Assembly (NCBI GenBank): GCA_002687935.1
Contig: NZBN01000007.1
Coordinates: forward strand, 84,383 to 148,382
DNA: 64,000 nucleotides
Direction: 5' to 3'
Origin: Methanobacteriota archaeon
Lineage (GTDB): Archaea > Undinarchaeota > Undinarchaeia > Undinarchaeales > Undinarchaeaceae
The position numbers and the translations under genes were made by a program. Shown piece by piece: positions 30,095 through 62,210 of this stretch (position 1 is its first letter; each line of letters opens with the position of its first letter). The notes beneath the pieces were generated by a model. It was not told the origin of the DNA. It made no database searches and saw only the letters and a program-made list of their open reading frames with translations.

Positions 30095-33052
<2,958 letters not shown>

Positions 33053-33272: not shown

Positions 33273-33310
33273 TTTATCCGGCTTGTTCCGACCACACGAG
33301 CCGGTTATTT

Positions 33311-34858
<1,548 letters not shown>

Positions 34859-35082
34859 ATCAGATACCAATACTAAGTATTAGTCCTCATGATAAGCAAG
34901 CTACAATAAACTGTCTAAGGAAGTATAGATTCGATCACTCCTCCCAAAGCAATCATTGCAGCCGCTATCTATTTAGCCATACTTTGTAGAGGGCTAAGCT
35001 CAAATTAAATTGAGCGACTTATTGAATGCCCGAGCCACTATATATAGTTTATTAGAATTTTCCAAATTTCCTTAAAATAAAA

Positions 35083-35213
35083 TGCGGGGAGTAGGATTCG
35101 AACCTACGAAGGCACTAAGCCACATGGTGTCTTATCATCACGTCCTGCGACGTTCATCGCTCAAGACTGTGTGATCTTGAGCCATGCCCATTTGACCGCT
35201 CTGGAATCCCCGC
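35083..35213 (-). tRNA. tRNA-Leu(CAA) with 47-nt intron at 37/38 (intron 35129-35175)
   Basis: GCGGGGA/TCCCCGC acceptor, CATGG/CCATG anticodon stem, long variable arm; intron folds as a hairpin. Confidence 0.92.
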
Positions 35214-35248
35214 ATCGGCAAGTTTCACTTCTTTTCGGTAACTTGCAA

Positions 35249-35320
35249 TGCGCCGACCGGGACTCGAACCCGGGTTACGAGCTTGGAAGGCTCGGGTCAT
35301 AGCCACTAGACCACCGGCGC
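35249..35320 (-). tRNA. tRNA-Gly(TCC)
   Basis: GCGCCGG acceptor; CGAGC-CTTCCAA-GCTCG anticodon arm. Confidence 0.96.
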
Positions 35321-35367
35321 ATAAGTGTTTCTTTTGAAACAATCTTCAAGAAGCTATTAAAGAGTTT

Positions 35368-35760
35368 CTATTCTCTAGTGTTTCCAAACTCTTCCAGAAT
35401 CTTGTCAAGGTCCAAGCCCTCTTCATGATTCAGAGAAAGTGGCATCTTTCCGTAATAGGGAATAAGATGTACATGTGTGTGCGGAACTTCTTCACCCATC
35501 AGAAGAACAAAAATCTTCTCAGCTCCGAAAGATTCCTTCATTTTCTTTCCGACTTCTTGGACAGCTCCGAAAAGCTCCTTCTCAGAGTCCCTTGCCATAT
35601 CCAAAAAACTCTCAGAATGTTCCTTCGGTATAACAAGCGCGTGTCCCCTGGAAGCCGGTCGGATATCCAAAAATGCAATGTGGCTCCCATCCTCCCACAG
35701 CCGCTTTGCCGGTATGTCACCGGCTGCAATCTTACAGAATATGCAGTTTTCAGTAGCCAT
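35368..35760 (-). CDS. HIT family hydrolase
   Basis: CIFCKI, FLDIRP, GHALVIPKEH, HTHVHLIP triad. Confidence 0.94.
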   Translation of the reverse strand: MATENCIFCKIAAGDIPAKRLWEDGSHIAFLDIRPASRGHALVIPKEHSESFLDMARDSEKELFGAVQEVGKKMKESFGAEKIFVLLMGEEVPHTHVHLIPYYGKMPLSLNHEEGLDLDKILEEFGNTRE

Positions 35761-35859
35761 TCTGGAAACTCTTAGAGTTCTCTGTCATTTAAAAAGCTTT
35801 CTTTTTCCCCAGTTTCGCGGGATTCGTGTTAAATAGCTTTTCTTGACATTAATAATATT

Positions 35860-45933: not shown

Positions 45934-46686
45934 ATGAGTAAAAATTCAGACGTCCTTAATTTGCTGAACCGCGTTGGCTTAAACAAGTATGAATCAGAGC
46001 TCTATACGGCGCTTCTTAAACTAGGAAGCTCTACTGCCGGCGAGCTTGCATCAAAGTCAAACGTTCCAAGGTCAAGAGTTTATGATGTTCTTATAAGTCT
46101 GGAGAAGAAGGGCTTTGCCCTTATTCAGGTGGGAAGGCCTGTAAAATATACAGCAACAGCTCCGGATAAACTTGTCGGAAGTATAGTTTCAAATTATGAG
46201 GATGACCACAAGGAAAGACTTTCAGATTTTGAAAGAATAAAAGGAAATCTTTTGAAAAGTCTCAGCAGTATTCACGGAACTGAAGGTTCTGAAGATGACA
46301 ATCTTGTCGGAATTATTCGCGGAAAGTCTAATATCTACAGTCAGATGAAAAATATGATTTCTGATTCAAAATCTTCAATTGTGAAGATTGCAAGCGGAGA
46401 AAGTGCAGGGCATTTTGAAAAACATTGTTCAGGTCATATTGAGGGAGCAAAGAAAAGAGGAGTCAATACTCGTCTTATAATTAATTCAGACGGAAAGGAC
46501 TCAGATTCAAAATCTTCAGCAGATTCAAGACTGTCAAAAAACAGCCACGGACGTTTTTTCGTTAAAGATGGAGAAGAACTTCTTGCATTTCTAAAGGGTG
46601 GCGAATCTGCTCTCTGGATACGCGATTCATCTTTGGCAGGCTCTTTTGCAGGACTCTTCGAATCAGTTTGGCAGAACAGCAAGTAA
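45934..46686 (+). CDS. TrmB-family transcriptional regulator
   Basis: GLNKYESELY...ELASKSNVPRSRVYDVLISLEKKG HTH followed by a PLD-like effector domain. Confidence 0.9.
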   Translation: MSKNSDVLNLLNRVGLNKYESELYTALLKLGSSTAGELASKSNVPRSRVYDVLISLEKKGFALIQVGRPVKYTATAPDKLVGSIVSNYEDDHKERLSDFERIKGNLLKSLSSIHGTEGSEDDNLVGIIRGKSNIYSQMKNMISDSKSSIVKIASGESAGHFEKHCSGHIEGAKKRGVNTRLIINSDGKDSDSKSSADSRLSKNSHGRFFVKDGEELLAFLKGGESALWIRDSSLAGSFAGLFESVWQNSK

Positions 46687-46703
46687 TCACTTATTAAACA
46701 AGG

Positions 46704-46765
46704 TTTATAAATGGAGTTACACTACATTTTCAGGGTGTAACCAGCACTATGTGGCGTTACACTAC
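46704..46765 (+). promoter_or_regulatory. Promoter (TTTATAAA 46704-46711) with operator-like GTTACAC(TAC) repeats
   Basis: GTTACACTAC at 46716-25 and 46756-65 (40 bp apart); inverted GTGTAAC at 46735-41. Confidence 0.65.
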
Positions 46766-46782
46766 TAAAACGGTGCTTTGAA

Positions 46783-49700
46783 TTGGTCTATAAACGCTAT
46801 ATCAAAAAAGGCGGGAAGAAAGTAGGTCCTTATTATTATGACAGTATGCGCGACGCAGACGGAAAAGTTCGTACAATATATATAGGACGCGACCCGACGG
46901 AATATCTCAGGAAAAAAGAGAGTTCAAAAAATAATATTTCATCTCCGTCTTCAAATTCTTCATCTCCAATGAGGAAAATTCCCTCCCGTCCCTTGGGCGG
47001 TTATCGCAAGACGAAAGTTGACTCAAAGTTCATAGGTTTCTCTCTGGTTTTTCTTGCTCTTATTGCAGTGGTTCTATCTTCTCCTTTATCGGACGCGCCA
47101 ACAGGACTTCTTGCGGGCGGTCAAAAAGTTTCAACAAGCTGGGAAAATGTAGAGTTTCTGCAAATCGCGACTGGTCAGAGAGCGGTTTCCCATCACATAG
47201 TTTTCGGAAGCAACAAGCCAGAGGCCTGTGAAGATGGCATATTTGTTCTCTCTGGTAATGGAGAGGAAGTTGATTTTACTCTTACTGACAAGATTATTTC
47301 TGGAGGAGAATGTCAGAAAGCAATTATCCACTTCACTGCGGGTCCTGAGGCAGATATTGCTGCTGTTTTAGGCCTCTTTGAAATAGATGAAATAAATCTT
47401 GCATCTGAATATTCAATATTCTATGGTCTTGTAATATCAGGGGGTGTCGGAAGTTCTCCTTCTACTGTTGAAGCGGCAGACGAACAGGAACTGCAGGACA
47501 TTCACCTGGAATCTTCCCAGATAGTCGCCGGAGAAGATATTATGTGGACAAAGAAGGTGAAAGTTCAGAATACTGAAAAGCGCCCAAGGACCCTGGATGT
47601 CAGTATTGGCATACCAGATGATGCGAAGAGTGTCACTTTTACAAGCTACACATCTCCAAATGAATTTTTTGTTTCAGACACTGTGGAGGGGCAGTCTGTT
47701 GATTACGAGTATTCATTAGAGAGTCTTGAGTCAGAAACTTTTGAAGTAGAATATGTTACGGAGGGTCCAGTTGTTGAAGAATCAAATCTTTCAGAGGCTG
47801 ATGGCAGGCTCACAAAGACTGTTAATGTTTCATCGGACTATCATTACGAAAATGTTCTCACCTATGCAGCAGTTCCTGACCTCGAGCCTGAGCAGGTTCA
47901 TCTCTTCTGGATTATTGATGGTATTAAAACTGATGTCACTGAAAGGGCAGATTTCAATGTGAGCTTCTACGACGAGAACGGCGACGGGCTCATTGATAAA
48001 ATGTCCTGGGTCGTTCCCCACCTCTCTACTCAGGAATTCGTTCTTGTTTTTGACATCACTGTAATAAATCCATGGCATTATGGAGCCAGCGGAGAGGACT
48101 GGATTGTTTACTTTAACACAACGGGTGAGGGGACGCTGAACATAAGCAAAGACAGTTTAGCAGATTCAGTGCTTTCTTTTAACTGGATAAAATGCGGTAT
48201 TGCTACCCTGACTCCGATTATTGATGGTCCAAGTGTTATTGTCTACAACTATTCCTGTGACTATAAAGGAAGTATCAGTCATACGATATCTGAGATGCCG
48301 TCTGAGGTCTTCAGTCAGACTTTGAACTTTGGAAATGACCTGTATAATGATGTTGATTTTGCTTATGATCCTTCGTGTACTGAAGAGCTTCAACATCCAA
48401 TTACTTGCGACACTTCAACATACCCTGGTGGTGGTCCAGGGATTACTTGCGATATGATGTTTGGACTTCCTGTTGTATACCAGGATGGAACGAACTGCTT
48501 CGCAACTGGAGCTCCTGGCACCGGAATGGAGTGCACTAACATGGGGCCTCCCGTCTCCGTAGAATGCGCGGTCTTCAGTTCTGGAATTCCGGAAGCAACA
48601 ATAACGGCCTCCGATGCAACTGCAACAGAAGCAGGTTTAACAACTGGTGACTTCACAATAGCTCTTGATTCAGCCGCCTCCGGCAATCTGGTAATAGATT
48701 TTACCGTCAGCGGAAATGCTACATCTGGAAGTGACTATACAAGTATTGGAACTGTTGCAACAGTCAAAAATGGCTTCGACAATGTTGTTGTAACTGTCAC
48801 TCCCTTGTATGATAGACTTATTGACGAATCAGAAACTGTAATCGTAACTCTTGATTCTGGTTCAGGTTACACCATGGGAATTCCATACTCGGCAACGGTT
48901 ACTATAACAAATAATGACCACAGATTTACTATGGGTACAGAGGGTACAACATCGGCTTACACTGTAAATGGATCAACAAATATGACGATTTTAAACAACA
49001 CTATCTACAATACTGATCAGATAATAAACTTCACTCACTCAACACACGGAGTCAGGCTGGCTTTGAATGCCCCATTATCCACTTCCTTCATAAACCTAAC
49101 GTCTCTTGTAATTGATGCTAGCTATCTAAAAACTGCCATAAACTTTACTAGTGTTTCAGGTCCTGATTCTGCTAACCATACTATATATTTCCCTCTAACT
49201 GGAGCCGGCGGATATATATGTCCGGATGCAAATGCGACTTCTCAGGTTTCATCAGGCTGTTCAAAAGTTGTCACCTTCTCACATCCTGAGGCTTTAAACG
49301 GAAGTGCAAAAGGAGGTTTCCAGTTCTATATAGAAGGGTCAAGCTACAAAATAATGAATCTCTCTGGTAGCGGAGGCGGCGGCTGGGAACAGCCCGGTCA
49401 TACGACGCCCCTGCTCAATATGACGGACAATCCAAACAACACAAGCAGTGCAAATCTCACAGCCTGGAACCAGTCCACAAACCAGAATAACAGCGTTGCC
49501 GTTTACAACAATTATGACTGGATTGTCAACAACACCTCAATCGCTGTGGTAAACATGGCATTCGATGTTAACAACTCGACGGGCGTTAACAACTACGGGA
49601 ATGGAAGCTCTGGTGTTGTCAGCGGACCGACTCATATGTCAAACGCAAGTTGCAAGAGAGGCGGCTGCTACAAGTTCGACGGTGTCAATGATTTCATCAA

Positions 49701-51756
49701 CATTTCTGACAGCAACTCATTAGATATAACTCAGAATATCTCAATTAGCTTCTGGCTCAATATCACAGCCCTTCCTACAGCCTATTCAACAATAATTTTG
49801 GGCAAGGCGAACACCTCAACTCACTGGGCCGGTCCTTACTGGTTTGAGCTCTACGGAAACAACAACCCATCAGGAAAGACTCTGTCTTTCTGGATTGCCA
49901 ACGCATCCGACCAAGGAAGTTCAATAAATCATGCCAACTCTGCAAGTCTTTCCTACCAACATATAGTTGGAACTTATGATGGAAAGACTATGAGGCTCTT
50001 CGTGAATGGAACGCAGGTCAGTTCCAAGGCAATATCTGCCACACTAAAAACTAATGCACATCCCTTCTATATCGGAAAGGGCTACGGAGGTACGAGCTAC
50101 GGGGGCAATTACAGCGATGTAGTTGTTGACGAACTTACAGTTTACGACAGAACTTTGACGGCTCAGCAGATTTCTACAATTTACAATTCCGGAACTCCAA
50201 AATACAATGTCACTGTTGCTGAAGAGCTAAAGCGCGGAGAGATTTGGAAGGTCAATGTCACTCCTATTGACAAGTACAGGAGCGGTCCAACTAAAACTTC
50301 TGCAACTGTTACAATAATGAACTCTGTCCCTACTCAGATTTCTCCAATCCTCAATGCGACTGACGACCCTCTCAACAGGACTGATGCAAATCTTACAGCA
50401 TACAACAAGTCAACGAATGATGTGGATAATGATACTGTAATTAATGTCTTCAACTGGGTTGTCAATGAAAGTTCAATAACAGTACTGAATATGCCATTTG
50501 AAATAGGAAATGGAACTCTAGGTGTTGCTGTACAGGACTGGTCAGGCGCAGAGAGAGACGGAAGTATAATGGGCGGAGCTCTGACCTGGACTACAGGCGG
50601 CCCTGCAAATAACTTCTACAATTTCGGTGGTACAAACGAATATGTCTCAATTCCTTATAGCGCTGACTTTAACTTTGCAGGAGCTTCTCCCTTTACTCTG
50701 AACCTTTGGCTGAGGACTTCAACTACTTCAAAACAGGGAATTTTCCAGGTACTTGATGAGGCAATGGAGGCACGGGGCGGCTGTGGTGCTGGTCCTCCTG
50801 GTGCAATGTACTTCCTTTACCAAAAGGCAGGACCTCCTTCTTTTGTCGAATTCATAATCTGTGATGGTTCCGGTCAAAAAGACACTATAACAGGTATTCG
50901 TGATGTTGCAGATGGAAACTGGCATATGATTACGGTTACGAAGACTGCCGTTGACTTAAATCTGTTTTATGACGGTGCTCCAGATATTCTAGGAATTCCT
51001 CATACCCAAATCAACATCCCCGGCAAGAGAGCATCCGATCCTAACTCTAATCAGACAATTGGAAGAGTAAAGGACACGCAAACTCTCGGCGGAACTTTCT
51101 ATTATGATGGAGATATAGATGATGTTATTGTTTACAACCGAGCTCTGAGTGTGCAACAAATTGGTCTTATATACAACGCCGGCACGGCAAAATATGATGC
51201 CCAGAATGCCGCTGAGACAAATGAGGGTGATGTCTGGTATGTAAACGTCACTCCTATCGATTTAATATCCAATGGAACTACCAACAGGTCCAACAATGTA
51301 AGCACTGGAGCAGTTGTGACTCTAACACTGTCCAACTGCGATGTCAGTTTCGGAAATATGATTCCGGGGCAGGCGGACAACACCACGGACGGTTCTCCAA
51401 CGCCTTGTGTTGTTAACAACACAGGAAATGTTGATGTAAATCTATCAGTTGAGAAGAATGCCAGTCTCTTTAGTACAGGGGATGGTTCAGGCTCAGGCTC
51501 GACTGTAAACTTCGGAGTTATGATAGCTAACACAAGCGGTTCTACTTCCTGTTGTGTAGGGACAGGTTCCGGCGGTCGCTGTGTCGGAGGAAACTTCAGC
51601 GTTATTAACAGCTCAATAAATGAAGTTGTCCGCAACTTGTCATATATTGATGGCAGTGATGCCTGCGAACTTGAATATTCTGTCAAAATTCCAAGTGAGG
51701 AGCCTCCTGGGTTGAAGAACGCTACGGTTTTTGTTACTGGAGCAAAATCTGGTTAA
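46783..51756 (+). CDS. Giant multi-domain surface adhesin (GPYYY head, TM, Calx-beta, 2x LamG, C-terminal pilin-like domain)
   Basis: TTG start after GGTG; TM at aa 83-99; Calx-beta about 48595-48918; LamG FDG/YDG/DEL motifs; many N-x-S/T sequons. Confidence 0.85.
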   Translation: MVYKRYIKKGGKKVGPYYYDSMRDADGKVRTIYIGRDPTEYLRKKESSKNNISSPSSNSSSPMRKIPSRPLGGYRKTKVDSKFIGFSLVFLALIAVVLSSPLSDAPTGLLAGGQKVSTSWENVEFLQIATGQRAVSHHIVFGSNKPEACEDGIFVLSGNGEEVDFTLTDKIISGGECQKAIIHFTAGPEADIAAVLGLFEIDEINLASEYSIFYGLVISGGVGSSPSTVEAADEQELQDIHLESSQIVAGEDIMWTKKVKVQNTEKRPRTLDVSIGIPDDAKSVTFTSYTSPNEFFVSDTVEGQSVDYEYSLESLESETFEVEYVTEGPVVEESNLSEADGRLTKTVNVSSDYHYENVLTYAAVPDLEPEQVHLFWIIDGIKTDVTERADFNVSFYDENGDGLIDKMSWVVPHLSTQEFVLVFDITVINPWHYGASGEDWIVYFNTTGEGTLNISKDSLADSVLSFNWIKCGIATLTPIIDGPSVIVYNYSCDYKGSISHTISEMPSEVFSQTLNFGNDLYNDVDFAYDPSCTEELQHPITCDTSTYPGGGPGITCDMMFGLPVVYQDGTNCFATGAPGTGMECTNMGPPVSVECAVFSSGIPEATITASDATATEAGLTTGDFTIALDSAASGNLVIDFTVSGNATSGSDYTSIGTVATVKNGFDNVVVTVTPLYDRLIDESETVIVTLDSGSGYTMGIPYSATVTITNNDHRFTMGTEGTTSAYTVNGSTNMTILNNTIYNTDQIINFTHSTHGVRLALNAPLSTSFINLTSLVIDASYLKTAINFTSVSGPDSANHTIYFPLTGAGGYICPDANATSQVSSGCSKVVTFSHPEALNGSAKGGFQFYIEGSSYKIMNLSGSGGGGWEQPGHTTPLLNMTDNPNNTSSANLTAWNQSTNQNNSVAVYNNYDWIVNNTSIAVVNMAFDVNNSTGVNNYGNGSSGVVSGPTHMSNASCKRGGCYKFDGVNDFINISDSNSLDITQNISISFWLNITALPTAYSTIILGKANTSTHWAGPYWFELYGNNNPSGKTLSFWIANASDQGSSINHANSASLSYQHIVGTYDGKTMRLFVNGTQVSSKAISATLKTNAHPFYIGKGYGGTSYGGNYSDVVVDELTVYDRTLTAQQISTIYNSGTPKYNVTVAEELKRGEIWKVNVTPIDKYRSGPTKTSATVTIMNSVPTQISPILNATDDPLNRTDANLTAYNKSTNDVDNDTVINVFNWVVNESSITVLNMPFEIGNGTLGVAVQDWSGAERDGSIMGGALTWTTGGPANNFYNFGGTNEYVSIPYSADFNFAGASPFTLNLWLRTSTTSKQGIFQVLDEAMEARGGCGAGPPGAMYFLYQKAGPPSFVEFIICDGSGQKDTITGIRDVADGNWHMITVTKTAVDLNLFYDGAPDILGIPHTQINIPGKRASDPNSNQTIGRVKDTQTLGGTFYYDGDIDDVIVYNRALSVQQIGLIYNAGTAKYDAQNAAETNEGDVWYVNVTPIDLISNGTTNRSNNVSTGAVVTLTLSNCDVSFGNMIPGQADNTTDGSPTPCVVNNTGNVDVNLSVEKNASLFSTGDGSGSGSTVNFGVMIANTSGSTSCCVGTGSGGRCVGGNFSVINSSINEVVRNLSYIDGSDACELEYSVKIPSEEPPGLKNATVFVTGAKSG

Positions 51757-51787
51757 GTTTATATACCTCTTAGACGTATTCCGAATT

Positions 51788-52021
51788 ATGAAAGAAACTA
51801 TGTCTGTAAGGTCTTTTTCCGTGTTACTCATTGCTGTTGTGTTTATCTCTGTTATTGGAACTACATTAGTTCTTCAGAGTCTTGGATTTTTATCTCTTCC
51901 GACCTCTGTAGATGCAGGCTCTGCTACAGTTTCAGTTACTGTAGTTTCTCCGGATTCTGTAGTCGGCATAGAAACCACTGGTGAGGTGAAAGTCGACATA
52001 ATTTCAGAAGAATCAACGTGA
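51788..52021 (+). CDS. 77-aa signal/TM protein carrying only two beta-strand motifs
   Basis: ATG 51788 after TATA at about 51758-65; ATVSVTVV and TTGEVKVDI strands; shares SV[IL]GTT with the next gene. Confidence 0.65.
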   Translation: MKETMSVRSFSVLLIAVVFISVIGTTLVLQSLGFLSLPTSVDAGSATVSVTVVSPDSVVGIETTGEVKVDIISEEST

Positions 52022-52070
52022 TTGCAATAAAGTATATATAGCATATTTTTCACGTTAGAGTAGTAAAAAA

Positions 52071-52703
52071 ATGGCAAAACAAATAGAATCAGGAACAGCG
52101 GCATTTGTGCTTACTCTTGTAGCTATTGTCTCAGTTCTTGGAACTACTGCAATACTTACTTCTGGTGGTCCTGTGCCCTTTATTACAGGTTTTGCAACAT
52201 CTGGAGCCAACAATACAACTGCAACAGCCTCTGTTAATGTCTCTGAGTATGTTATAATGTCTCTCAATTCTTCTGTTCTAAAATTCGGAGAGGATGCTCC
52301 ACTTACTCCTGGAGCCTCGGACGATACAACTGACGGAAATCCTGACCCACTTATCCTTACTAATGATGGTAATGTTGAAATGAACGTTTCAGTCCAGAAA
52401 AACGACGATTTGTTCACAACAGATGTTGCGGGAAGCCTCCAGATAAAAGCTCTTAATGACACTGCAGGAGACAACGCCGGCTGTGGTACAGGAGGAGGTA
52501 CTGGAAGGATGGTGGACTCCTTCGCAGACATTAATGACAGTCCAAATCCAGACCAGATTATCAAAAACCTTGGATATGTTGCTGCAAACGATACCTGCGC
52601 AATACACCTAAAAGTTACAGTTCCATCTGATGAGCCTGCAGGAAATTACACTTCAGTTCTTACATTCACTGGAGTAAAAAGAGGCTATCTACTCCTAAAG
52701 TAG
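52071..52703 (+). CDS. Putative fimbrial subunit A (paralogue of the adhesin C-terminal domain)
   Basis: Signal + ITGFATSGANNTTATASVNVSE; shared FG, TTDxxPxP, NxGN, KNLxY and VPSDExG motifs. Confidence 0.75.
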   Translation: MAKQIESGTAAFVLTLVAIVSVLGTTAILTSGGPVPFITGFATSGANNTTATASVNVSEYVIMSLNSSVLKFGEDAPLTPGASDDTTDGNPDPLILTNDGNVEMNVSVQKNDDLFTTDVAGSLQIKALNDTAGDNAGCGTGGGTGRMVDSFADINDSPNPDQIIKNLGYVAANDTCAIHLKVTVPSDEPAGNYTSVLTFTGVKRGYLLLK

Positions 52704-52751
52704 TGGTGGCTTTGTTTGCTGCACTTGGTTTCCTGTCATACTGGTTTCACC

Positions 52752-53363
52752 ATGCAAGGAAAAATAAAGACAAACATAGCAATTCTGGCAATTATTCCGA
52801 CTGTACTAATAGTGATTATATTGATCCTTTCCTCAATGGGTTCATTCAACATATCATTGTCAGGTTTCACAACAGCCGGAGCTAACAACACGACTCTAAT
52901 GGCATCTGTAAATGTTTCAGAAACTATTACCTTGTCTCTTTCAGCTGCGACTATAAACTTCGGCTCCCTTGTCCAAGGTACAGCAAACAATACAACAAAC
53001 GACGCTCCAAATCCATTTATTCTCGTCAATGGAGGGAATATTGGTATAGATTTGACAATTAAAATGAATCAGAGTCCCTTCAACGGAACAGGAAGTGGAA
53101 ATAATACGAACACTTTCAGATTCAAAGCCGGAAACTGCTCTACAGCAGTCTGCGGCACCGGTAATACTAGTGTATTCAATTGGGGTTCTTCCCAGACAAG
53201 TTTCCAGAATTTCACCACTGTGGCTCAGAACCTTATTAAAAATCTGAGCTATACAAGTGGAAATGATATTGCTGAAGCGGAGCTACTTCTTAGTGTTCCC
53301 AGCGATGAATCAACTGGCACAAAGTCAGTTGCAATAACTTTCACAGCCTCCAAAACCGAATAG
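52752..53363 (+). CDS. Putative fimbrial subunit B
   Basis: Signal + LSGFTTAGANNTTLMASVNVSE; same domain motifs. Start moved to ATG 52752. Confidence 0.75.
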   Translation: MQGKIKTNIAILAIIPTVLIVIILILSSMGSFNISLSGFTTAGANNTTLMASVNVSETITLSLSAATINFGSLVQGTANNTTNDAPNPFILVNGGNIGIDLTIKMNQSPFNGTGSGNNTNTFRFKAGNCSTAVCGTGNTSVFNWGSSQTSFQNFTTVAQNLIKNLSYTSGNDIAEAELLLSVPSDESTGTKSVAITFTASKTE

Positions 53364-53398
53364 AGGTGACTTTTATATATTAGTGCGAAATATTGTCT

Positions 53399-54577
53399 AT
53401 GATGAGATTGGGTAAGCTTCTGACGATTGGTTTAGTATTCTTTTTTCTATTAGTGTCCAACGTACAAGCAATAGGAATAACTCCTGCCCGTGTTACTGTT
53501 GATTTTGAGCCCGGTATGGAGGGCGTTAAAAACTTCTGCGTAATCAACAATCAGAAAAAGAGTATGGGTGTTGACCTTTTCGTGAACGGCGGATTGGCAG
53601 AATATATTGAGCTCAGTGCTACGAGGGCTACAATAAACCCGGCAGAGTATTCAAAATGCTTTAGTTACATTTATTCTCTTCCTGACAGGATGGAACCCGG
53701 AACGCACGAAGCACGAATAGGTGTTACTGAAATTCCCCCCGAAAATATATTCGAGGGTACAGGAATCAGCACAAGGGCAAGCGTTCTCAGCCAGTTCAGG
53801 GTCTTTGTTCCTCCTGAAGGAAGTCACATACAAATCGAGAGGATTCTCACAAGCCAGGCTGATGTTGGTCATCAGGTAAGTATCAAACTTCTTGTCAGGA
53901 GCATAGGAACGGAAGACACAGAATTTTATGGTGATGTTAAAATTTCTGATTCTAATAATGTCAATCTTGGAACTCTCTCTGTTCCAAAAACTCTTGTTAC
54001 AGCAGGAGCCGTCAAGATAGTTGAGCTAAACTGGGGTGGTTCTACAATTCCTGGTCGATATTCAATTCTCGCCAGTCTGACTTACGACGAAGGTGTTGAA
54101 ACAACTGAAACTGCTGAAATAAAAATTGGTGGAGAGCACGTGGATATAATTGCAGAAGATTCTATGCAGGTTGCCCTTGACGATATCTCTAATTTTATCC
54201 TGACAGTCGAGAACTTCTGGAGCGAAGAGATAGAAGATGTCTCAGGTCGAATAGTGATACAGGACAGCGCAGGAAAAACTGTTGAACAACTGAGTATAGA
54301 ATCTTTTGACCTCAAGGCTCTCGGAACTAAGAACATGAACCTGTTCTGGGACTCAAGAGACGCTGCTGAAGGTGAATATCTTGTCACAATTGTTCTTGAT
54401 TATCTCGACGGTAAGGTTTCAACAAAGAAGATAACACTATCTATCGGAGCCGTCTCAGCAGTAGCAGAATCAAGTTCAGTTGATGCACCAAGTCAGGAAT
54501 TAGTTGCAACACTTTCACTTCTGCTCATTGTTCTAGTTATCCTAACTATTATCTACGTAGCAATAAGGAAGAAGTAA
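53399..54577 (+). CDS. DUF916/PapD-like Ig protein with further Ig domains and C-terminal TM anchor
   Basis: Signal ending VQA, then IGITPARVTVDFEPG...N; PGRY; C-terminal TM plus RKK. Confidence 0.65.
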   Translation: MMRLGKLLTIGLVFFFLLVSNVQAIGITPARVTVDFEPGMEGVKNFCVINNQKKSMGVDLFVNGGLAEYIELSATRATINPAEYSKCFSYIYSLPDRMEPGTHEARIGVTEIPPENIFEGTGISTRASVLSQFRVFVPPEGSHIQIERILTSQADVGHQVSIKLLVRSIGTEDTEFYGDVKISDSNNVNLGTLSVPKTLVTAGAVKIVELNWGGSTIPGRYSILASLTYDEGVETTETAEIKIGGEHVDIIAEDSMQVALDDISNFILTVENFWSEEIEDVSGRIVIQDSAGKTVEQLSIESFDLKALGTKNMNLFWDSRDAAEGEYLVTIVLDYLDGKVSTKKITLSIGAVSAVAESSSVDAPSQELVATLSLLLIVLVILTIIYVAIRKK

Positions 54578-56299
54578 ATGCCCCCCAAATCAAAAAAGAT
54601 TCCGAAAATTGCAGTTATTGCAGTATTCCTTGCGGTTCTTGCAACTCTAATTGCTCTTTCAGGTCCTTCTTACGAATATGAGCTCCAAGAGCTTGATATG
54701 CATCTTACAGTTGGCAAGAGTCTGGGCTTTAATGTAGATTCAGATGCAGTGTATTTTGGAACCACTTTTCCTGGGGGAAGCTCAACTCGTGAAATTATAA
54801 TCTTCAATAATCAAACAAGAGATGCCTATGTAACTGTTGGTGCAAAGGGTGACCTTTCAAACTGGGTGTCAGTCTCTAAAAACAATTTTACGATTCCTGG
54901 AAAGTCAGGGACTACTCTTAAAGTAACTGCGTCCCCTCCTGGGTCAGCAATCCAGGGGAATTACAGCGCTGTTCTACAAATCTTTCTCAGATATCAAAAA
55001 GCTGATAGCAAGGTAAGCGGTCTTGCCGCTGGGGCGGTCAATTTCTCTGTAACAGCGGTTGGCGACGTCACAGCTCCTGTTATAACTGCAGTAACTATAA
55101 CTTCAGACCTTTCTGACGGAGATACAGCAACAATAAGGGCAAATGTTACTGATGACATTGCGGTCGACACAGTTTTCGCAACAGTTGATGTAAGCAGTTC
55201 TCTGACAAATTACACAATGTCACAGGAAGGTTCGACTGATTTCTATAGTACAACATTTACTGCGGCAGAGGGAACCCATTCTTACATCGTGACTGCCAAC
55301 GATACATCTGGAAACTCGACAAATACTAGCTATACAAGCTTTACAGTGTCTGCTCCACCGGCTACTGCAGTTGGCGACGTAAGTGGGGGTGGAGGCGGTG
55401 GCGGAGGTGGAGTCGGCGGAACTATGGCAGAATCTTTTAGAGTACATATCAAAGCTCCAGAAATCGTTTCTGCCTACAGTGACGAAGAAAAAACCATAAC
55501 TGTTATAGTGTCAAACCTCGGAAATGGAGTTCTTACAGACCTCTCTCTTTCTGCAAGCGGAAGAATTTCTCCTTATACAATTACTCCTCCCACAATCAAG
55601 GCTCTGTCTCCCGGAATGCGTGCTACCTTCCTTCTCAAACTTACTGCTCCTGATATTGTCGACGACAATGAGTTCAATATAACAATCAGTGCTTCTTCAA
55701 AACAGGCAAGCACTTCTTCCAGTTTCCTTCTCAAAGTAATTGGTATACAAAAACCTGCTCTTGAAATACGACTTCAGCAGAGTTTCGATGAAATAGAAAA
55801 ACTTCTGGATGAAATCTGGTCTGAGGCAGAATGGCTCGCTCTTCGGGGAGCAGAGGTCTCAAAAGTATTTACACTTCTAGATAGTGCCAAGTCCTCCCTT
55901 GAAGAGGCGAAGGCGGCAATTGGACCGCTCGGTTATACTGCGGCGCAGGAAAAGCGGGATGAAGCCAGAGCCTTCCTGGAGGATGCCGTCATAGCTCTTG
56001 GTGAGGCACAACCTTCAATCAAATTTACTCTGACAAATACGGCTATACTCTTTATTGCTCTCGCAGTTCTTATTGTAAGTGCTCTAACCATCTATACTAT
56101 ACGGAATGCAGGAAAGACACGTTCTACATATAAAACAATTAAGTCCCGCGAAAGAGCTCAGAAAGGAAGGATGGACAAACGTAAACAGATCCGTCTAAAG
56201 AAGCAGGCAGCCCTGATAAAAGAGGCGTATAAAGAAGGCCACATTAGCAAGAAGACCTATGAAAAATCCAGGCGGAAGCTTAAGCGTAGCAAGAAATAA
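54578..56299 (+). CDS. Multi-Ig membrane protein with N-terminal anchor, helical region, C-terminal TM and basic SHOCT-like tail
   Basis: VYFGTTFPG Ig domain, DVTAP...ANDTSGN domain, poly-Gly linker, TM, AYKEGHISKKTY. Confidence 0.7.
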   Translation: MPPKSKKIPKIAVIAVFLAVLATLIALSGPSYEYELQELDMHLTVGKSLGFNVDSDAVYFGTTFPGGSSTREIIIFNNQTRDAYVTVGAKGDLSNWVSVSKNNFTIPGKSGTTLKVTASPPGSAIQGNYSAVLQIFLRYQKADSKVSGLAAGAVNFSVTAVGDVTAPVITAVTITSDLSDGDTATIRANVTDDIAVDTVFATVDVSSSLTNYTMSQEGSTDFYSTTFTAAEGTHSYIVTANDTSGNSTNTSYTSFTVSAPPATAVGDVSGGGGGGGGGVGGTMAESFRVHIKAPEIVSAYSDEEKTITVIVSNLGNGVLTDLSLSASGRISPYTITPPTIKALSPGMRATFLLKLTAPDIVDDNEFNITISASSKQASTSSSFLLKVIGIQKPALEIRLQQSFDEIEKLLDEIWSEAEWLALRGAEVSKVFTLLDSAKSSLEEAKAAIGPLGYTAAQEKRDEARAFLEDAVIALGEAQPSIKFTLTNTAILFIALAVLIVSALTIYTIRNAGKTRSTYKTIKSRERAQKGRMDKRKQIRLKKQAALIKEAYKEGHISKKTYEKSRRKLKRSKK

Positions 56300-56333
56300 A
56301 GATTTATAAAGAAGTAGCTCTTACGGAATTAAT

Positions 56334-56660
56334 ATGGCTGGAGACGCAAAGAAATCTGGAACAAAGGAAAAAGTCCTTGAGACTGAGGATCACGTTCTTG
56401 ACGCCCTAAAGGATTTACAGGCACAACTTGAGCAACTTTCCGAAGAAAAGAGGAAGCTCGAGAATACGGTTGCCAGTGTCGAGGGTAAGATAGAATCAAC
56501 AACTCAAAAAGAGGACGACACAAGGCGTCAGCTTGCTGAGCTTGTAAAGCACGAAGATGCCCTCAGAAGGACTGAGAGAGCTCTCCACAAGAAGCTGGAG
56601 ACACTTAAATCCGAGAGTTCAAGGGTTCTGGAAATAAAATCAAGGCTTCAGGAAGTTTAA
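56334..56660 (+). CDS. Coiled-coil protein
   Basis: 108 aa with heptad-like L/E/K pattern. Confidence 0.65.
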   Translation: MAGDAKKSGTKEKVLETEDHVLDALKDLQAQLEQLSEEKRKLENTVASVEGKIESTTQKEDDTRRQLAELVKHEDALRRTERALHKKLETLKSESSRVLEIKSRLQEV

Positions 56661-56665
56661 TTTAT

Positions 56666-57553
56666 TTAGCTTTGAAATGAAGGCAGGCTGTTTATATTAT
56701 TGCTTATAGTTAGACCTATTGTTCTTGCTATTCTGTCAGAATACGAACCTATAAGCGACTCTAAAAGGCTACCTTCCTGCCCAATCTCAACAAGTGCCAG
56801 GTCTTCTTCTCCAGCAAGCTCCTCAGCCAAACTTATTGCGGATTCTCTACTTCCTACAGAATCAACAAGCCCGAGCTCCAGAGCTTTTTTGCCGATGCAG
56901 GGTCTTCCGTCAGATACTTCAGATAAATCTGCACCTTCCCTTCTTTCACGAACGACTCTTACAAATTCTTCATTTATTTGGTCAACCATATTCTGAAATA
57001 TGGCTTCCTCACTTTCTGTCATTTCTCTATAAGGGTTTCCAATATCCTTATGCTCTCCAGATTTTATTGTAGTCTGGCTCACATTATAATCTTCAAGCAG
57101 TTTCGAAAAGTCTGAAATCTGTATGTAGGCACCTATGCTGCAGGTCATTGAAAGGGGATGTGATACAATTCTGTCTGCTGAAGTAGCTACCCAGTAAGCT
57201 CCTGAGGCTCCGACCTCAGCTATCCAGGCGACTACAGGTTTTTCACTTTGCAGTATTATAGCTGCAATCTCTGCACTTGCCACAGGTGAGCCTCCTGGTG
57301 AGTTTATTTCAACTACAATTGCCTTCACATTGGAATTGTCTTCTGCCTCCTCGAAAAGTCTTGAGAATTCAGATACTGTCATTGCCTCATCCATAAATCC
57401 ACTAGAACTCCTTATAACTCCCTCAAGCCTGACAACTGCAACTGAGTCTTCAAAATAGACTCCGTCTGACCATCCTCCAAACATAAAAATAATTGCAATA
57501 ATTATGAGTGAGATTATTAGTGTTTTAGTCCTTTTTCCTACGTTCTTCGCCAT
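56666..57553 (-). CDS. sppA: Signal peptide peptidase SppA (S49)
   Basis: INSPGGS, GASGAYWVA, SIG, KSGEHKD, ALELGLVD. Confidence 0.93.
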   Translation of the reverse strand: MAKNVGKRTKTLIISLIIIAIIFMFGGWSDGVYFEDSVAVVRLEGVIRSSSGFMDEAMTVSEFSRLFEEAEDNSNVKAIVVEINSPGGSPVASAEIAAIILQSEKPVVAWIAEVGASGAYWVATSADRIVSHPLSMTCSIGAYIQISDFSKLLEDYNVSQTTIKSGEHKDIGNPYREMTESEEAIFQNMVDQINEEFVRVVRERREGADLSEVSDGRPCIGKKALELGLVDSVGSRESAISLAEELAGEEDLALVEIGQEGSLLESLIGSYSDRIARTIGLTISNNINSLPSFQS

Positions 57554-57630
57554 AATTTCCTTAAGTTCTTGGTCTTTAAATATCTGCCCGCCTAAAAAAA
57601 CTTAAATAAGCTTCCTGTCATGATTTGAGT

Positions 57631-58644
57631 ATGAAAATTCTGATAACAGGTGGGGCTGGCTTCATTGGATGTAATTCCGCGGATTATTTTCTGGGGAAGG
57701 ATCACGAAGTAAGTGTTCTCGACAATCTGTCTCGTGCAGGAACAGACAAGAACCTTGAGTGGCTACAAAAACGTCATCCTAATGTCATATTTGTCAAGGC
57801 CGATGTCAGAACTGACCAGTCTGTTCTTAATGAGGAAGTTTCCAAAGCTGATGCTGTTATTCATCTTGCGGCACAAGTTGCGGTTACCACCTCTGTTACA
57901 AATCCCCGTGAAGATTTTGACATAAATGCTCTCGGGACTTTCAACGTTCTAGAGGCAATCAGAAAATCTGAGAATAAGCCACCTCTTATTTACTCCTCTA
58001 CAAACAAAGTATACGGAAAAATGGAGGAACTCGAAGTAGTTGAGGGAGAAAATCGTTACAAATACAAAGATATTGAGGGTGTTGATGAAAATCAAAATCT
58101 CGATTTCCACTCCCCCTATGGCTGCAGCAAGGGTGCGGCAGACCAATATGTTCTCGACTATGCCAGAATCTATAATTTGAAGACAGTCGTCCTCCGGCAG
58201 AGCTGCATTTATGGCACAAGACAGTTTGGAATCGAGGACCAGGGCTGGGTTGCATGGTTTATAATCGCAACAAGTCTCGGAACACCACTTAAAATATACG
58301 GAAACGGAAAACAAGTTCGCGATGTTCTATATATAGATGACCTTGTAAGATGCTTTGAAATGGCTTTTGATAATATTAACAAGACTACAGGAAAGGCCTA
58401 CAACATCGGAGGGGGTCCAAACAACTCCCTTTCACTTCTTGAACTCATTGCTCAACTTGAAAACTTGCACGGTAATGAAATAGAGCACAGTTTCCACGAT
58501 TGGCGTCCTGGTGATCAACCAGTTTTCATTTGTGACATAAGCAAAGCAAAGAATGATTTTGGTTGGGAGCCCAAGGTCAGTCCTGAAGAGGGCGTGAAGA
58601 AACTCTTCAACTGGGTTCAGGAGAATAAGGAACTTTTCCAATAA
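57631..58644 (+). CDS. NAD-dependent epimerase, CDP-paratose 2-epimerase (RfbE)-like
   Basis: GGAGFIG, STNKVYG, SPYGCSKGAADQYVLDYARIY, DQGWVAWF. Confidence 0.85.
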   Translation: MKILITGGAGFIGCNSADYFLGKDHEVSVLDNLSRAGTDKNLEWLQKRHPNVIFVKADVRTDQSVLNEEVSKADAVIHLAAQVAVTTSVTNPREDFDINALGTFNVLEAIRKSENKPPLIYSSTNKVYGKMEELEVVEGENRYKYKDIEGVDENQNLDFHSPYGCSKGAADQYVLDYARIYNLKTVVLRQSCIYGTRQFGIEDQGWVAWFIIATSLGTPLKIYGNGKQVRDVLYIDDLVRCFEMAFDNINKTTGKAYNIGGGPNNSLSLLELIAQLENLHGNEIEHSFHDWRPGDQPVFICDISKAKNDFGWEPKVSPEEGVKKLFNWVQENKELFQ

Positions 58645-58645
58645 A

Positions 58646-59860
58646 ATGAAACTTCTAATGGTCCAGCACCATTATTATCCATCCCTAGGTGGCGGGCAGG
58701 AGTATGCAAAACTCCTCTCAGAAGGTCTTGTAAAAAAAGGTCACAAGGTCACAGTTTTTACAACAAACAGTCTTACAAATGAAGATATCCTCTCTCTTTC
58801 CTTTACTCCTCCCTTCCTTTCTCGCAAGAAGAAAATAAAGCCTCTTAAGTCAAAGGAAACAGTCGGCGGAGTATCTGTCAAGAGGTTTCCTGTAAAAGGA
58901 AGATTTTACAGTTTCAACAGTATCCCTGAAATGTTCAGAAGCATGGACGATTTCTCAGATTATGATGTCATTACATCATATGGTTTCAACCTTCTCTCTT
59001 CTTTTGAAGCCTGCAGAAAGGCACGAAAACAGGGAAAGCCCTTTATTCTGAATGGTGTTGATGTTCTCGTTCCGAAAAGTCTTCCCCTTCCAGCAAGAGT
59101 TCTGAAATGGTTTTATGATTTAAGCTTCGGAAGATATATTGCAAAAAATTCTGACTACATTATCTCCTTTACAGAAGATCAGGTTAAGGACTATGTAAAA
59201 AGAGGTGCCGTTGAATCAAAAATAGGGATAATTCCACCTCCCCTCATTCTGAAGGATTATTCATCTAAGATAAGCGAGGCCTTTCTGAAACGCCACGGAA
59301 TAAAGAAGAAGGATAAAGTTCTACTCTATGCCGGAAGACTCACAGAACACAAGGGTATTCAAGATGTTATTGAGGAACTTCCAGAAATCAGGAAAAAAGT
59401 TCCAAACGTAAAGTTCTTCATAGCTGGAGAAGACTATGGCTATAAGAAAAGTCTTCAGAGCCTTATCAGAGAAAAGGGTGTGGAAGATTCTGTCTTTTTT
59501 GTCGGTCCATACAGGGCGCGTGAGAAGGAATTAATACAGTTCTTTGCCGCCGCCGATCTTTTTGTTCTTCCTTCAAACATGGAAGGCTTTGGTATTGTTC
59601 TAGCTGAAGCAATGGCCTGCGGAACTCCATGCATTGCTTATAATATTCCTGCTGTCAGAGAAGTTATTAGTGATGGGGAAAATGGTTATCTTGCTAAAGA
59701 CAGAAGAGATTTGAGTAAGCACATAATTTCTCTACTTTCTAGTCCCTCAGAGCTCAAGAGAATGGGTGAAAATGGCAAAAAATCTGTAAAAAGACTGTCT
59801 CAATCTACAGTAGTTTCCGATCTTGAAAGCATATACAAAAAGCTATTAAAGAATAAATAA
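58646..59860 (+). CDS. Glycosyltransferase family 4
   Basis: GGGQE N-terminal motif, [22 protein letters not shown]. Confidence 0.92.
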
Positions 59861-59874
59861 GAGAAATCTTGAAG

Positions 59875-60813
59875 ATGGCAAAACAAAAAATACTGGTAAC
59901 AGGGGGTTCAGGCTTCATTGGCAGTCACCTCTGTGATTTTCTCATAGAGAAAGGCAATTCTGTAGTCTGCGTTGACAATCTTTTCACCGGAACGAAAAAA
60001 AACGTTGAACACCTTATGGATAGTGATTCATTTGAGTTTATAGAGCACGATATAATCGAGCCCATGGAAATAAAAGTTGACCAGATATACAATCTTGCCT
60101 GCCCTGCATCTCCTATCCACTATCAGGAAAATCCTGTCAAGACAGTAAAAACAAGCGTTATGGGTATGATAAACATGCTGGATCTCGCACAGTCTTCAAA
60201 TGTTAGAATCTTACAGGCATCAACTTCTGAAGTTTACGGGGACCCGGAAGTTCATCCTCAGCCGGAGACTTACAATGGAAATGTCAACCCTCTTGGTCCA
60301 CGAGCTTGCTATGATGAGGGAAAACGTGTCGCTGAAACTTTAATGATGGATTATCATCGTGAGAATCAGGTTGATGTCAGAATTGCAAGAATTTTCAACA
60401 CATACGGACCAAGAATGGCACAGGATGACGGAAGGGTTGTTTCTAATTTTATAACTCAGGCACTCACTGGAAAAGATTTGACAATCTACGGTGACGGAAA
60501 ACAGACAAGAAGTTTCTGCTATGTCAGCGATATGGTTATAGGGCTCTATGAAATGATGAACCAGAATAATATAGGTCCGATAAACCTGGGAAATCCACAT
60601 GAAATAACTGTTGGAGACCTTGCAACTGAGATAATTGAGCTCTCAGATTCCATCTCTCAGGTAATTTTTAAAAAGCTTCCAGAAGATGATCCAAAGCAGA
60701 GGAAGCCGGATATAAGCCTTGCCCGTGAAGTTCTTGGTTGGGACCCCCAGGTTTCTCTCAAGGAAGGTATGTCTCTCACAGTAAAATATTTCAAAGAAGT
60801 TCTTGGTAAGTGA
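59875..60813 (+). CDS. UDP-glucuronate decarboxylase (UDP-xylose synthase)
   Basis: [44 protein letters not shown]. Confidence 0.92.
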
Positions 60814-62210
60814 TGAAGAGAAAAAAGACCATACTGTTCGGAATAACAAACAACTTTTTCAAGGAGCCACTGTCTCTTATTTCAAATGAGCTTATTTCAC
60901 GCGGTTATAATGTGATTATTCTGACAAGTTCAAGAAAGGTAAACAATTATTTCCTTCTCAAGAGCCCTGATGTACGTTCTATATATCTTCCAAAAGCTGG
61001 ACGCTCACTCGGACTAAAATATTCCGATACTGCTCTCGACAAACTTTTCAAAAAATACAATTTCAACCAGGAGCAGTTTTTCTTCCGAGAAACAAAAATA
61101 TTGGGGAGAAAGAAAAAATGCCTCAGACATTACAGTTTTCCGATATTATCTTATTTGGATAAATTCTTTGAAGAGGAAAAAATCGATTACTTCGTTAACT
61201 GTGGGGAAGGTCTTTCCAATATAATGATGTGGCGTGTTTCAAAAAAGACAGACGCAGAATACTTTCACACAACGTGGGTTGGCTATATCGACAATATGCA
61301 TTACTGGGATTCTGACCTTAACAGAATAAGCTGGATAAAACCTGAGTTTCTCAAAAAGAAAATGACGAAAGCTGACTTAAAGATCGCGGAAGATTTCCTC
61401 TCAGGCAGTAAAAAAGCGAAGAAGGTTCAGGGCTTCGAGCCGAGAAAAGTTTTCACTTACTATTTTTTCAAGAAATATCTAATGTATCTATATAATTACA
61501 TTTCAACGGGTCCTGCTCGTATGGAGACTTACTCGCCACCGACTCTTGCAAATCTCTGGGTATCAAGGTTTTTCAAGCGCCTTTACTACCGCTCATATTA
61601 CAAGGACTTCGATAAAACTGAGAAATATTTTTACTTCCCTCTGCACCTTTACTACGATGCGATAATTGCTCTGACGAACCAGAAGTTCTACAGACAGGAC
61701 GATGCAATAAAAATGGTCGCCGAAAATATTCCGAAAGACCATATAATTATTACAAAGGAGCATCCGGTACTTGACGGAACTATGCCCTTTGATATGATGA
61801 GTGTTATCTCGAAACTGGACAATGTGAAAATTGTAAATCCACATACCAATTCTCACGAATTGATAAAAAACTCATCTGGTGTAATTACAATTGCCTCTTC
61901 AGTCGGTTGGGAAGCAATGCAGTACGGAAAACCGGTTATAACTCTTGCTGACACCTTCTTTGACTATAAGAATCTCACAAGGAAGGCGAATAGTGAGGCA
62001 GAGCTAAAAAAACTTGCTAAACAGGCAGCGGATGGAAAATTAAAGTTCAATAAAAACGACCTTCTGCAATATACTTACTCTTTCGTTAAATCACATCAGC
62101 CAAATGATTATTTTGCTGAGGATAGTCTGTCCTTTGACCGTAGTGCGAAAAACATCCGGGGCCTTGCCGACGCGATAGAGGCTGAAATAAAATACAGGGA
62201 AGGCAATTAG
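60810..62210 (+). CDS. Capsule polysaccharide biosynthesis (KpsS-like) GT-B protein
   Basis: [27 protein letters not shown]-terminal motifs. Confidence 0.65.

What the first reader, a model, noticed from the sequence alone, without database searches (positions are those of the whole stretch)
45934..57553. Candidate new archaeal fimbrial/adhesion system: adhesin + paralogous pilin-like subunits + chaperone-like anchor, with regulator and peptidase
Seen directly: the last about 150 aa of the 1657-aa protein and the two small secreted proteins are clear paralogues. They share (L/I/V)xFG, G..[DN][DN]TT[DN]xxPxP, NxGN, [KR]NL[SG]Y, D and [VI]PS[DE]ExG...T[GA]xK. Only the small ones carry an N-terminal alternating strand (GANNTTATASVNVSE / GANNTTLMASVNVSE); the adhesin has lectin domains there instead. 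Known parallels: tip adhesin = lectin + pilin domain and donor-strand exchange in chaperone-usher pili (compare the CfaB N-terminus VEKNITVTASVD), and Firmicute csc/WxL clusters (large ConA/LamG protein, small paralogues, DUF916 anchor). Inference: a donor-strand-polymerised, glycosylated filament tipped by a LamG/Calx-beta adhesin and built on membrane-anchored Ig proteins, plausibly for host attachment. No type IV signal, ATPase or usher is present, so it is not an archaellum or type IV pilus.
Basis: partly seen in the sequence, partly recalled or inferred. Interest (0 to 1): 0.9.

Follow-up and report, generated by a model that had tools for sequence, protein, structure and literature searches.

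The report
DPANN archaeal adhesin-fibre gene cluster
A small symbiotic-type archaeon (Undinarchaeota) carries a conserved cluster for a giant lectin adhesin, small look-alike subunits and a membrane-anchored helper resembling the chaperone of a newly described Gram-positive pilus, so it probably builds a sugar-coated attachment fibre of a kind not yet reported in archaea.

Summary
The last ~150 aa of the 1657-aa protein and the two ~210-aa secreted proteins are true paralogues (BLASTP E 2e-22, 5e-19, 8e-29).

The shared domain has no Pfam, NCBIfam or PDB sequence match. It is nevertheless a large family: 1363 representatives at 50% identity. It occurs either as a stand-alone protein with a leader, or at the extreme C-terminus of secreted proteins of 240-4150 aa.

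The 394-aa protein P4 almost always follows it. All 74 subunit-positive genomes among 151 genomes of another DPANN phylum also have P4. At least 29 of the 30 best subunit matches have a P4 gene within 520 nt downstream.

P4 resembles WxLIP (DUF916/DUF3324), the membrane-anchored chaperone of the Enterococcus Elr/WxL donor-strand pilus (preprint, Oct 2026):
- language-model feature score 0.90;
- near-threshold Pfam hits in relatives.

The subunits do not detectably match the WxL domain.

P5 and a ~108-aa coiled-coil protein also belong to the conserved cluster. TrmB and SppA do not.

Best reading (about 50%): an usher-less, chaperone-assisted donor-strand fibre. The strand exchange itself is inferred, not shown. 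This would be a new variant of a known kind. The scan's index held no look-alike on other DNA.

The parts
45934..46686 (+). TrmB-family regulator upstream; adjacent, but no homologue found beside the cluster in other genera
   Evidence: PF01978 E 1e-21. No phmmer hit in six syntenic loci. An unassigned ~290-aa gene sits upstream in two Nanoarchaeota-like loci.
46783..51756 (+). 1657-aa adhesin: conserved basic N-terminal segment, one TM or signal segment, Calx-beta-like domain, two LamG domains, C-terminal subunit-like domain
   Evidence: PF13385 E 4e-36. The NCBIfam TafC hit goes through LamG only.
46783..46920 (+). Adhesin aa 1-46, predicted cytoplasmic motif (VYKxYI..GKK.GPYY...DGKV..[IV]Y[IL]G), conserved across phyla in a subset of giant family members
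   Evidence: 81% identity over aa 1-200 to a congeneric orthologue, near-identical over aa 1-44. The same motif heads adhesins of G218 and G205 and seven of the 96 representatives of 300 aa or more, counting this window's adhesin and its congeneric orthologue.
51298..51753 (+). Adhesin C-terminal domain (aa ~1506-1657), paralogue of A and B, candidate acceptor or attachment module
   Evidence: Profile match 8.5e-70.
51788..52021 (+). 77-aa ORF: subunit-like leader plus two short strands carrying the extension motif (..G.A.V.V.V..), with no Ig body
   Evidence: 95-97% aa identity in the two congeneric genomes; no convincing match (E < 0.01) in the other genera's loci.
52071..52703 (+). Subunit A (210 aa): leader, N-terminal extension (aa 38-59, nt 52182-52247), Ig-like domain
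   Evidence: AF2 pLDDT 85.5, pTM 0.79. Fold matches.
52716..53363 (+). Subunit B (215 aa from the TTG; an ATG at 52752 may be the real start)
   Evidence: Its orthologues are the best-conserved subunit in other genera (subB E 2e-42 to 2e-30).
53393..54577 (+). P4: signal peptide, three Ig-like domains (long hairpin aa 103-139 with a disordered tip, nt 53699-53809), C-terminal TM; WxLIP-like candidate chaperone or anchor
54578..56299 (+). P5 (573 aa): N-terminal TM, ASH/PapD-like Ig domain, internal extension-like strand (aa 146-159, nt 55013-55054), further Ig domains, helical region, C-terminal TM, Lys-rich cytoplasmic tail; candidate base anchor
56334..56660 (+). 108-aa coiled-coil protein without TM, conserved in position after P5 in other phyla
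   Evidence: Alignment of five position-matched proteins; loci.
56666..57553 (-). SppA (S49) signal peptide peptidase, opposite strand; no conserved linkage found
   Evidence: TIGR00706 E 6e-54. No SppA next to the cluster in six other loci.

Best explanation
The cluster encodes a Sec-dependent, usher-less surface fibre built at the membrane by a tethered chaperone. P4 (signal peptide, WxLIP/PapD-like Ig domains, C-terminal TM) captures newly exported proteins that carry the family's Ig-like domain. These are the giant LamG/Calx-beta adhesin, through its C-terminal domain, and the small subunits A and B. Each small subunit then inserts its N-terminal extension ([IL][TS]G..G.A.V.V.) into the domain of the previously added protein. 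The adhesin therefore ends up distal, and A/B form a short shaft or adaptor. P5 carries the same extension motif plus a C-terminal TM and cytoplasmic tail, and would anchor or terminate the fibre. The exposed parts are probably N-glycosylated, and the likely use is attachment to a host cell or surface. Shown here: paralogy, family size, domain placement, gene order, co-occurrence, and the resemblance of P4 to WxLIP. Inferred: strand insertion, order of assembly, and the roles of P5, the 77-aa ORF and the coiled-coil protein.
For: (1) Paralogy.
(2) Family: 1363 representatives. Of the best 150, 99 carry the domain C-terminally with a median of 4 residues after it, and 46 are stand-alone with a leader.
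(3) Most payload proteins start with ordinary signal peptides, so the C-terminal domain is their only evident attachment device.
(4) Tight linkage to P4. In the order, the same 10 of 13 genomes have both families and 3 have neither. In 151 genomes of another phylum, 74/74 subunit-positive genomes are P4-positive, 21 have P4 only and 56 have neither. At least 29 of the 30 best subunit matches have P4 within 520 nt downstream.
(6) The WxLIP protein ElrE is reported to be a donor-strand chaperone, with C-terminal WxL adhesins and small pilins (bioRxiv 10.64898/2026.10.17.759780). CPR Pam pili also use TM-anchored PapD-like chaperones (PMC13278184).
(7) The Foldseek list for subunit A is dominated by donor-strand pilins: TLP-1, FimG, TasA, CfaB, PapE, cannulae.
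(8) The G of the extension motif is at least 90% conserved among stand-alone subunits.
(9) Fusion and fission. In other genera a short TM+Ig protein and a long protein starting with leader+extension motif are separate genes. In Undinarchaeota they are fused, with the motif about 10 residues after the Ig domain.
(10) Sequons per 100 aa: adhesin 3.7, A 4.3, B 6.4, P4 0.
Confidence: 0.5

Rival explanations
1. A non-filamentous cell-surface display complex. The shared domain is a sorting or anchoring module. It docks secreted proteins (giant adhesins and small coat proteins) non-covalently onto the membrane-anchored Ig proteins P4 and P5, one to one, without polymerisation. This is the older Csc/WxL 'cell-surface complex' model.
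For: It explains the extreme C-terminal placement on many different payloads and the strict P4 linkage. It also fits the complete-looking Ig fold of the monomer. WxLIP was first described as a WxL-binding anchor (PMC10599100).
Against: It does not explain why genomes keep 2-3 stand-alone copies with a conserved N-terminal extension. It also does not explain why the same motif heads the TM-anchored long P5 proteins and is fused behind an Ig domain in this genome. The bacterial model that inspired it has been replaced by a pilus model (bioRxiv 10.64898/2026.10.17.759780).
Confidence: 0.3
2. The small subunits form a two-dimensional glycoprotein coat or sheath (S-layer-like). P4 and P5 act as membrane pedestals, and the giant proteins are inserted into the lattice through the shared domain.
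For: The subunits have a high sequon density. The nearest annotated Atlas neighbours of P4 include COG1361/COG1470 S-layer-type CARDB/NPCBM_assoc proteins. DPANN cells need some envelope protein.
Against: The family is missing from about half of the high-quality genomes of the sampled phylum and from 3 of 13 genomes in the order, which is odd for an essential wall. The subunits are single small Ig domains. No match to a characterised S-layer family was found.
Confidence: 0.1
3. A chaperone-free strand-donation filament of the TasA / archaeal bundling pilus / thread / Tafi type, with P4 and P5 as unrelated surface proteins.
Against: There is no sequence match to Peptidase_M73/TasA or DUF1102. 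The cluster has no TafD-type signal peptidase or DUF5305 gene. The near-obligatory P4 gene directly downstream argues against P4 being unrelated. In TafC the pilin-like part is N-terminal, whereas here it is C-terminal.
Confidence: 0.07

Closest known systems
Elr / WxL pilus of Enterococcus faecalis and the csc/WxL clusters of Bacillota (bioRxiv 10.64898/2026.10.17.759780; PMC10599100; PMC1534035)
   Same: The gene set has the same logic: a large adhesin with the attachment domain at its C-terminus, small stand-alone paralogues with an N-terminal extension, and a signal-peptide / Ig-domain / C-terminal-TM protein. P4 is the best structural match of solved WxLIP and matches WxLIP by Atlas features. 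Both organisms have a single membrane, and neither system has an usher.
   Different: The subunit domain is not a detectable WxL domain. P4 has a third Ig domain. There is no LPxTG terminator or sortase; instead there are TM-anchored P5 proteins and a predicted cytoplasmic coiled-coil protein. The host is an archaeon, whereas the preprint reports the system as confined to Bacillota.
Pam pilus of CPR bacteria (PMC13278184)
   Same: It occurs in an ultrasmall episymbiont. It has Sec-exported Ig-like pilins joined by strand exchange, PapD-like chaperones tethered by a C-terminal TM, and a terminator with an N-terminal strand plus a C-terminal TM (compare the long P5 proteins).
   Different: No sequence relation was tested or seen. 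Pam pilins have two domains. The system is bacterial.
Chaperone-usher pili (Fim, Pap, Caf1, CFA/I)
   Different: There is no usher and no outer membrane. The chaperone candidate is membrane-anchored. No sequence similarity was found.
Archaeal strand-donation filaments: Tafi (PMC11821415, PMC12337348), bundling pili, threads, cannulae
   Same: They are archaeal, Sec- or Tat-exported and glycosylated, with an Ig-like/jelly-roll subunit. Tafi has a LamG tip protein, TafC, which the adhesin matches through its LamG domains.

Membership tests
WxL/Elr chaperone-pilin system | DUF916/DUF3324 (WxLIP) protein with signal peptide and C-terminal TM encoded next to the pilins | tested here: inconclusive
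WxL/Elr chaperone-pilin system | Pilins and adhesin carry a WxL domain (PF13731) | tested here: not met
   No PF13731 hit in this genome at E<=1. No hit in any subunit gene of 151 genomes. There is only a 0.79 Atlas feature lead.
WxL/Elr chaperone-pilin system | [quoted passage not shown] | tested here: met
   99 of the 150 best representatives carry it C-terminally, with a median of 4 aa after the domain. Stand-alone forms have a conserved extension. Whether the extension acts as a donor strand was not tested.
WxL/Elr chaperone-pilin system | LPxTG terminator and sortase anchoring | tested here: not met
   Pfam and NCBIfam scans of the cluster proteins return no LPxTG-anchor or sortase family, and none of the printed translations ends in an LPxTG sorting signal. 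TM-anchored P5 stands in that place.
Chaperone-usher pili | Outer-membrane usher | tested here: not met
   No usher family among the cluster proteins.
Chaperone-usher pili | Incomplete Ig pilin completed by a neighbour's N-terminal strand | tested here: inconclusive
TasA / camelysin superfamily and DUF1102 (Tafi-like) | Sequence match to PF12389 or DUF1102; SipW/TafD-type signal peptidase in the cluster | tested here: not met

The most novel reading that the evidence does not exclude
DPANN archaea (Undinarchaeota, Nanoarchaeota-like lineages, Aenigmatarchaeota) widely use a chaperone-assisted donor-strand-exchange fibre. Its membrane-tethered chaperone would be a distant homologue of the Bacillota WxLIP/ElrE chaperone, while its pilin domain would be a separate, unnamed family. 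This would be the first chaperone-dependent strand-exchange pilus in Archaea. It would be the organelle that displays their giant, highly variable adhesins for host attachment. It would also have a cytoplasmic side (adhesin N-domain, P5 tail, coiled-coil protein) not seen in the bacterial systems.
Probability: 0.4. Interest if true: 0.85.

Novelty: new variant of a known kind. Interest (0 to 1): 0.74.

Why it matters
DPANN archaea live attached to other cells, yet how they attach is largely unknown. This cluster is found in about half of the sampled high-quality genomes of one large DPANN phylum and in 10 of 13 genomes of the order in which the window's genome lies. It links proteins of up to several thousand residues, with variable payloads, to one conserved C-terminal module and one conserved membrane protein.

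If the fibre model holds, three consequences follow. Membrane-tethered-chaperone strand-exchange pili would extend from Bacillota and CPR bacteria to Archaea. The statements that the WxL-type system is confined to Bacillota, and that archaeal strand-donation pili need no chaperone, would need revision. Hundreds of unannotated giant DPANN proteins could be recognised by a single profile as displayed adhesins. Even under the anchoring rival, the domain/P4 pair would be a new protein-sorting system in archaea.

Tried and rejected
- **Complex prediction.** Complex prediction with three copies of mature subunit A returned 'no answer' (ipSAE 0.31, 0.27, 0.12; mark 0.42). It is not used either way.
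- **Word-indexed homologue searches.** These found only near-identical or very few relatives. The exhaustive profile search was needed.
- **PDB sequence searches.** The subunit and P4 profiles found nothing meaningful.
- **Pfam and NCBIfam for A and B.** No family was found.
- **WxL Pfam model.** No hit in this genome. One borderline hit in 151 genomes (G268, 25.1 vs 25 bits, partial, internal, overlapping He_PIG). It is not next to a P4 gene and was rejected as a bridge.
- **Whole-protein Foldseek of P4.** The list was swamped by multi-Ig ciliary and complement proteins. The VIA re-ranking was informative.
- **VIA-wide search for A.** The WxL chain was not among the 50 best matches. This is inconclusive rather than negative.
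- **hhalign of P5 against the P4 profile.** Weak: E 0.0016, probability 16%. The genome HMM search gave 1.1e-5.
- **SppA and TrmB as cluster members.** Rejected for lack of homologues beside the cluster in other genera.
- **Phylum of G030.** The family is found there only sporadically, in 8 of 61 genomes, mostly as partial matches.
Full report
**Anatomy.** On the + strand lie, in order:
- a TrmB regulator (45934-46686);
- a 1657-aa protein (46783-51756);
- a 77-aa ORF (51788-52021);
- subunit A (52071-52703);
- subunit B (52716-53363);
- a 394-aa protein, P4 (53393-54577);
- a 573-aa protein, P5 (54578-56299);
- a 108-aa coiled-coil protein (56334-56660).

SppA lies on the opposite strand (56666-57553). 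The large protein has two LamG domains (PF13385, E 4e-36) and a sub-threshold Calx-beta match. Its NCBIfam 'TafC fimbrial protein' hit comes from the LamG part only. The genome is 667 kb and 87% complete. A close relative of subunit A is recorded from Candidatus Undinarchaeum marinum.

**Observation.** The paralogy is real. BLASTP gives A-B 8e-29, adhesin C-terminus-A 2e-22, and adhesin C-terminus-B 5e-19.

**The domain family.** Neither Pfam, NCBIfam nor PDB sequences recognise the domain. An exhaustive profile search nevertheless finds 1363 representatives at E<=1e-3, of which 791 are at <=1e-10. Among the best 150:
- 99 carry the domain at the very C-terminus of proteins of 243-4153 aa, with a median of 4 residues after it;
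- 46 are ~170-260-aa stand-alone proteins with a hydrophobic leader.

Most of the larger proteins begin with ordinary signal peptides and carry varied payloads. Stand-alone members have, after the leader, a conserved [IL][TS]G[FAL][AV]..G.A.V.V. segment whose Gly is at least 90% conserved. C-terminal-domain proteins instead have the last strand of an upstream Fn3-like domain at that place. The difference in profile start is moderate (median 10.5 vs 15, p 0.0013).

**Gene context.** Subunit genes, a P4 homologue and a P5 homologue are adjacent in six loci from five genera (three genera of the same order, two from other phyla). They are also adjacent in three further loci of another phylum. Within the order, the same 10 of 13 genomes have both the subunit and the P4 family, and 3 have neither.

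In 151 high-quality genomes of the phylum of G035, 74 have the subunit and 95 have P4. All 74 subunit-positive genomes are P4-positive. For at least 29 of the 30 best subunit matches, a P4 gene starts within 520 nt downstream on the same strand. Related genomes are not independent, so these counts overstate the statistical weight, but the gene order recurs across many families.

A ~105-111-aa coiled-coil protein without a TM follows P5 in the loci examined. No SppA or TrmB homologue was found beside the cluster outside the genus.

**P4.** The AF2 model (pLDDT 85) shows:
- a signal helix;
- three beta-sandwich domains (27-139, 146-245, 250-352);
- a C-terminal TM;
- in domain 1, a long hairpin (103-114 / 130-139) with a disordered tip.

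Language-model features give 0.90 with 203 shared features to a Bacillota cluster that is 98% PF06030+PF11797. Pfam WxLIP_HBD hits are mostly below the cut-off, but 13 of 22 hits in the 151 genomes fall inside P4 genes and two pass the cut-off. PGBD-like hits lie in domain 1 and HBD-like hits in domains 2-3, matching the WxLIP order. I judge homology to WxLIP likely but not proven.

**P5 and the 77-aa ORF.** P5's first Ig domain is ASH/PapD-like and weakly similar to P4 domain 1. In other genera two genes stand in its place:
- a short TM+Ig protein;
- a long protein that starts with a leader plus the extension-like motif and ends with a TM and a conserved Lys-rich tail.

In this genome and in G004 the two are fused. 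The motif (aa 146-159 here) then lies about 10 residues after the Ig domain. This order, Ig domain followed by strand, is the layout used in engineered donor-strand-complemented pilins (established knowledge of chaperone-usher work). I read it as indirect support for strand-domain pairing.

The 77-aa ORF has a subunit-type leader and two strands with the motif, but no Ig body. It is 95-97% conserved within the genus, and no convincing match was found in the other genera's loci.

**Other features.** Sequons are dense in the adhesin, A and B (3.7-6.4 per 100 aa), absent from P4, and 0-0.9 per 100 aa in the neighbouring cytoplasmic proteins. The adhesin's first ~45 residues are strongly conserved in a congener. 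The same motif heads giant family members in another phylum. Some adhesins may therefore keep a cytoplasmic domain and a membrane anchor.

**Literature.**
- The Elr/WxL operon of E. faecalis was reported in October 2026 to build a donor-strand pilus. Its chaperone is the membrane-anchored DUF916/DUF3324 protein, and its tip adhesins carry the WxL domain C-terminally. The authors state that the system is confined to Bacillota and that archaeal strand-donation pili need no chaperone.
- CPR bacteria have an analogous Pam pilus with TM-anchored PapD-like chaperones.
- Haloarchaeal Tafi have a LamG tip protein.
- Searches for DPANN with 'donor strand' or 'chaperone-usher' found no description of this system.

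**Verdict.** The cluster is a conserved, widespread and unannotated DPANN surface system. The best-supported mechanism is a chaperone-assisted strand-exchange fibre (about 0.5). An anchoring-only complex is the main rival (about 0.3). This is a new variant of a known kind.

Noticed in passing
window 46783-46920; L053:7380-7520; L055 (adhesin start near 12166, minus strand): A basic N-terminal motif (VYKxYI..GKK.GPYY...DGKV..[IV]Y[IL]G) precedes the TM of giant family members in Undinarchaeota and in another phylum. It has no Pfam match. Seven of the 96 representatives of 300 aa or more have it, counting this window's adhesin and its congeneric orthologue.
   Followed up: partly
window 56334-56660; L019:6183-6515; L053:6976-7293; L054:13611-13943; L055:12262-12576: A ~105-111-aa coiled-coil protein with no TM keeps its position after the P5 gene across phyla. 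A predicted cytoplasmic component in a surface-fibre cluster is unexplained. P5 also has a conserved Lys-rich cytoplasmic tail.
   Followed up: partly
window 57625-62210: Genes for a GDP-mannose dehydratase/epimerase-family enzyme and further ORFs follow the cluster. They may be glycan-synthesis genes that serve the sequon-rich subunits.
   Followed up: no
proteins P0015, P0027, P0045, P0049-P0051, P0094, P0098, P0106, P0137 and others; L020:6184-7125: Many mid-size family members share an N-terminal module directly after the signal peptide, with repeated S.NY...GG...S.NY....GF[FW]. Another group shares a Cys-containing module (C.I...C...L.N..GGY.NAHA). Both are recurrent, unannotated payload or cap domains.
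   Followed up: no
L052:6091-8136 (G268:C2): One archaeal genome has a borderline, partial, internal Pfam WxL hit (25.1 bits vs a cut-off of 25) in a 682-aa protein that is not next to a P4 gene. It is probably spurious.
   Followed up: yes
Atlas results: Clusters carrying WxL or WxLIP_PGBD are listed from Actinomycetota and several CPR phyla (Minisyncoccota, Saccharimonadota, Vogeliibacteriota, Levyibacteriota). WxL-type systems may therefore reach beyond Bacillota in bacteria too.
   Followed up: no
window 30001-36000: GC content rises to 0.47-0.51 against ~0.41 elsewhere, which is typical of an rRNA/tRNA region. An earlier scan note mentions a tRNA-Leu intron here.
   Followed up: no
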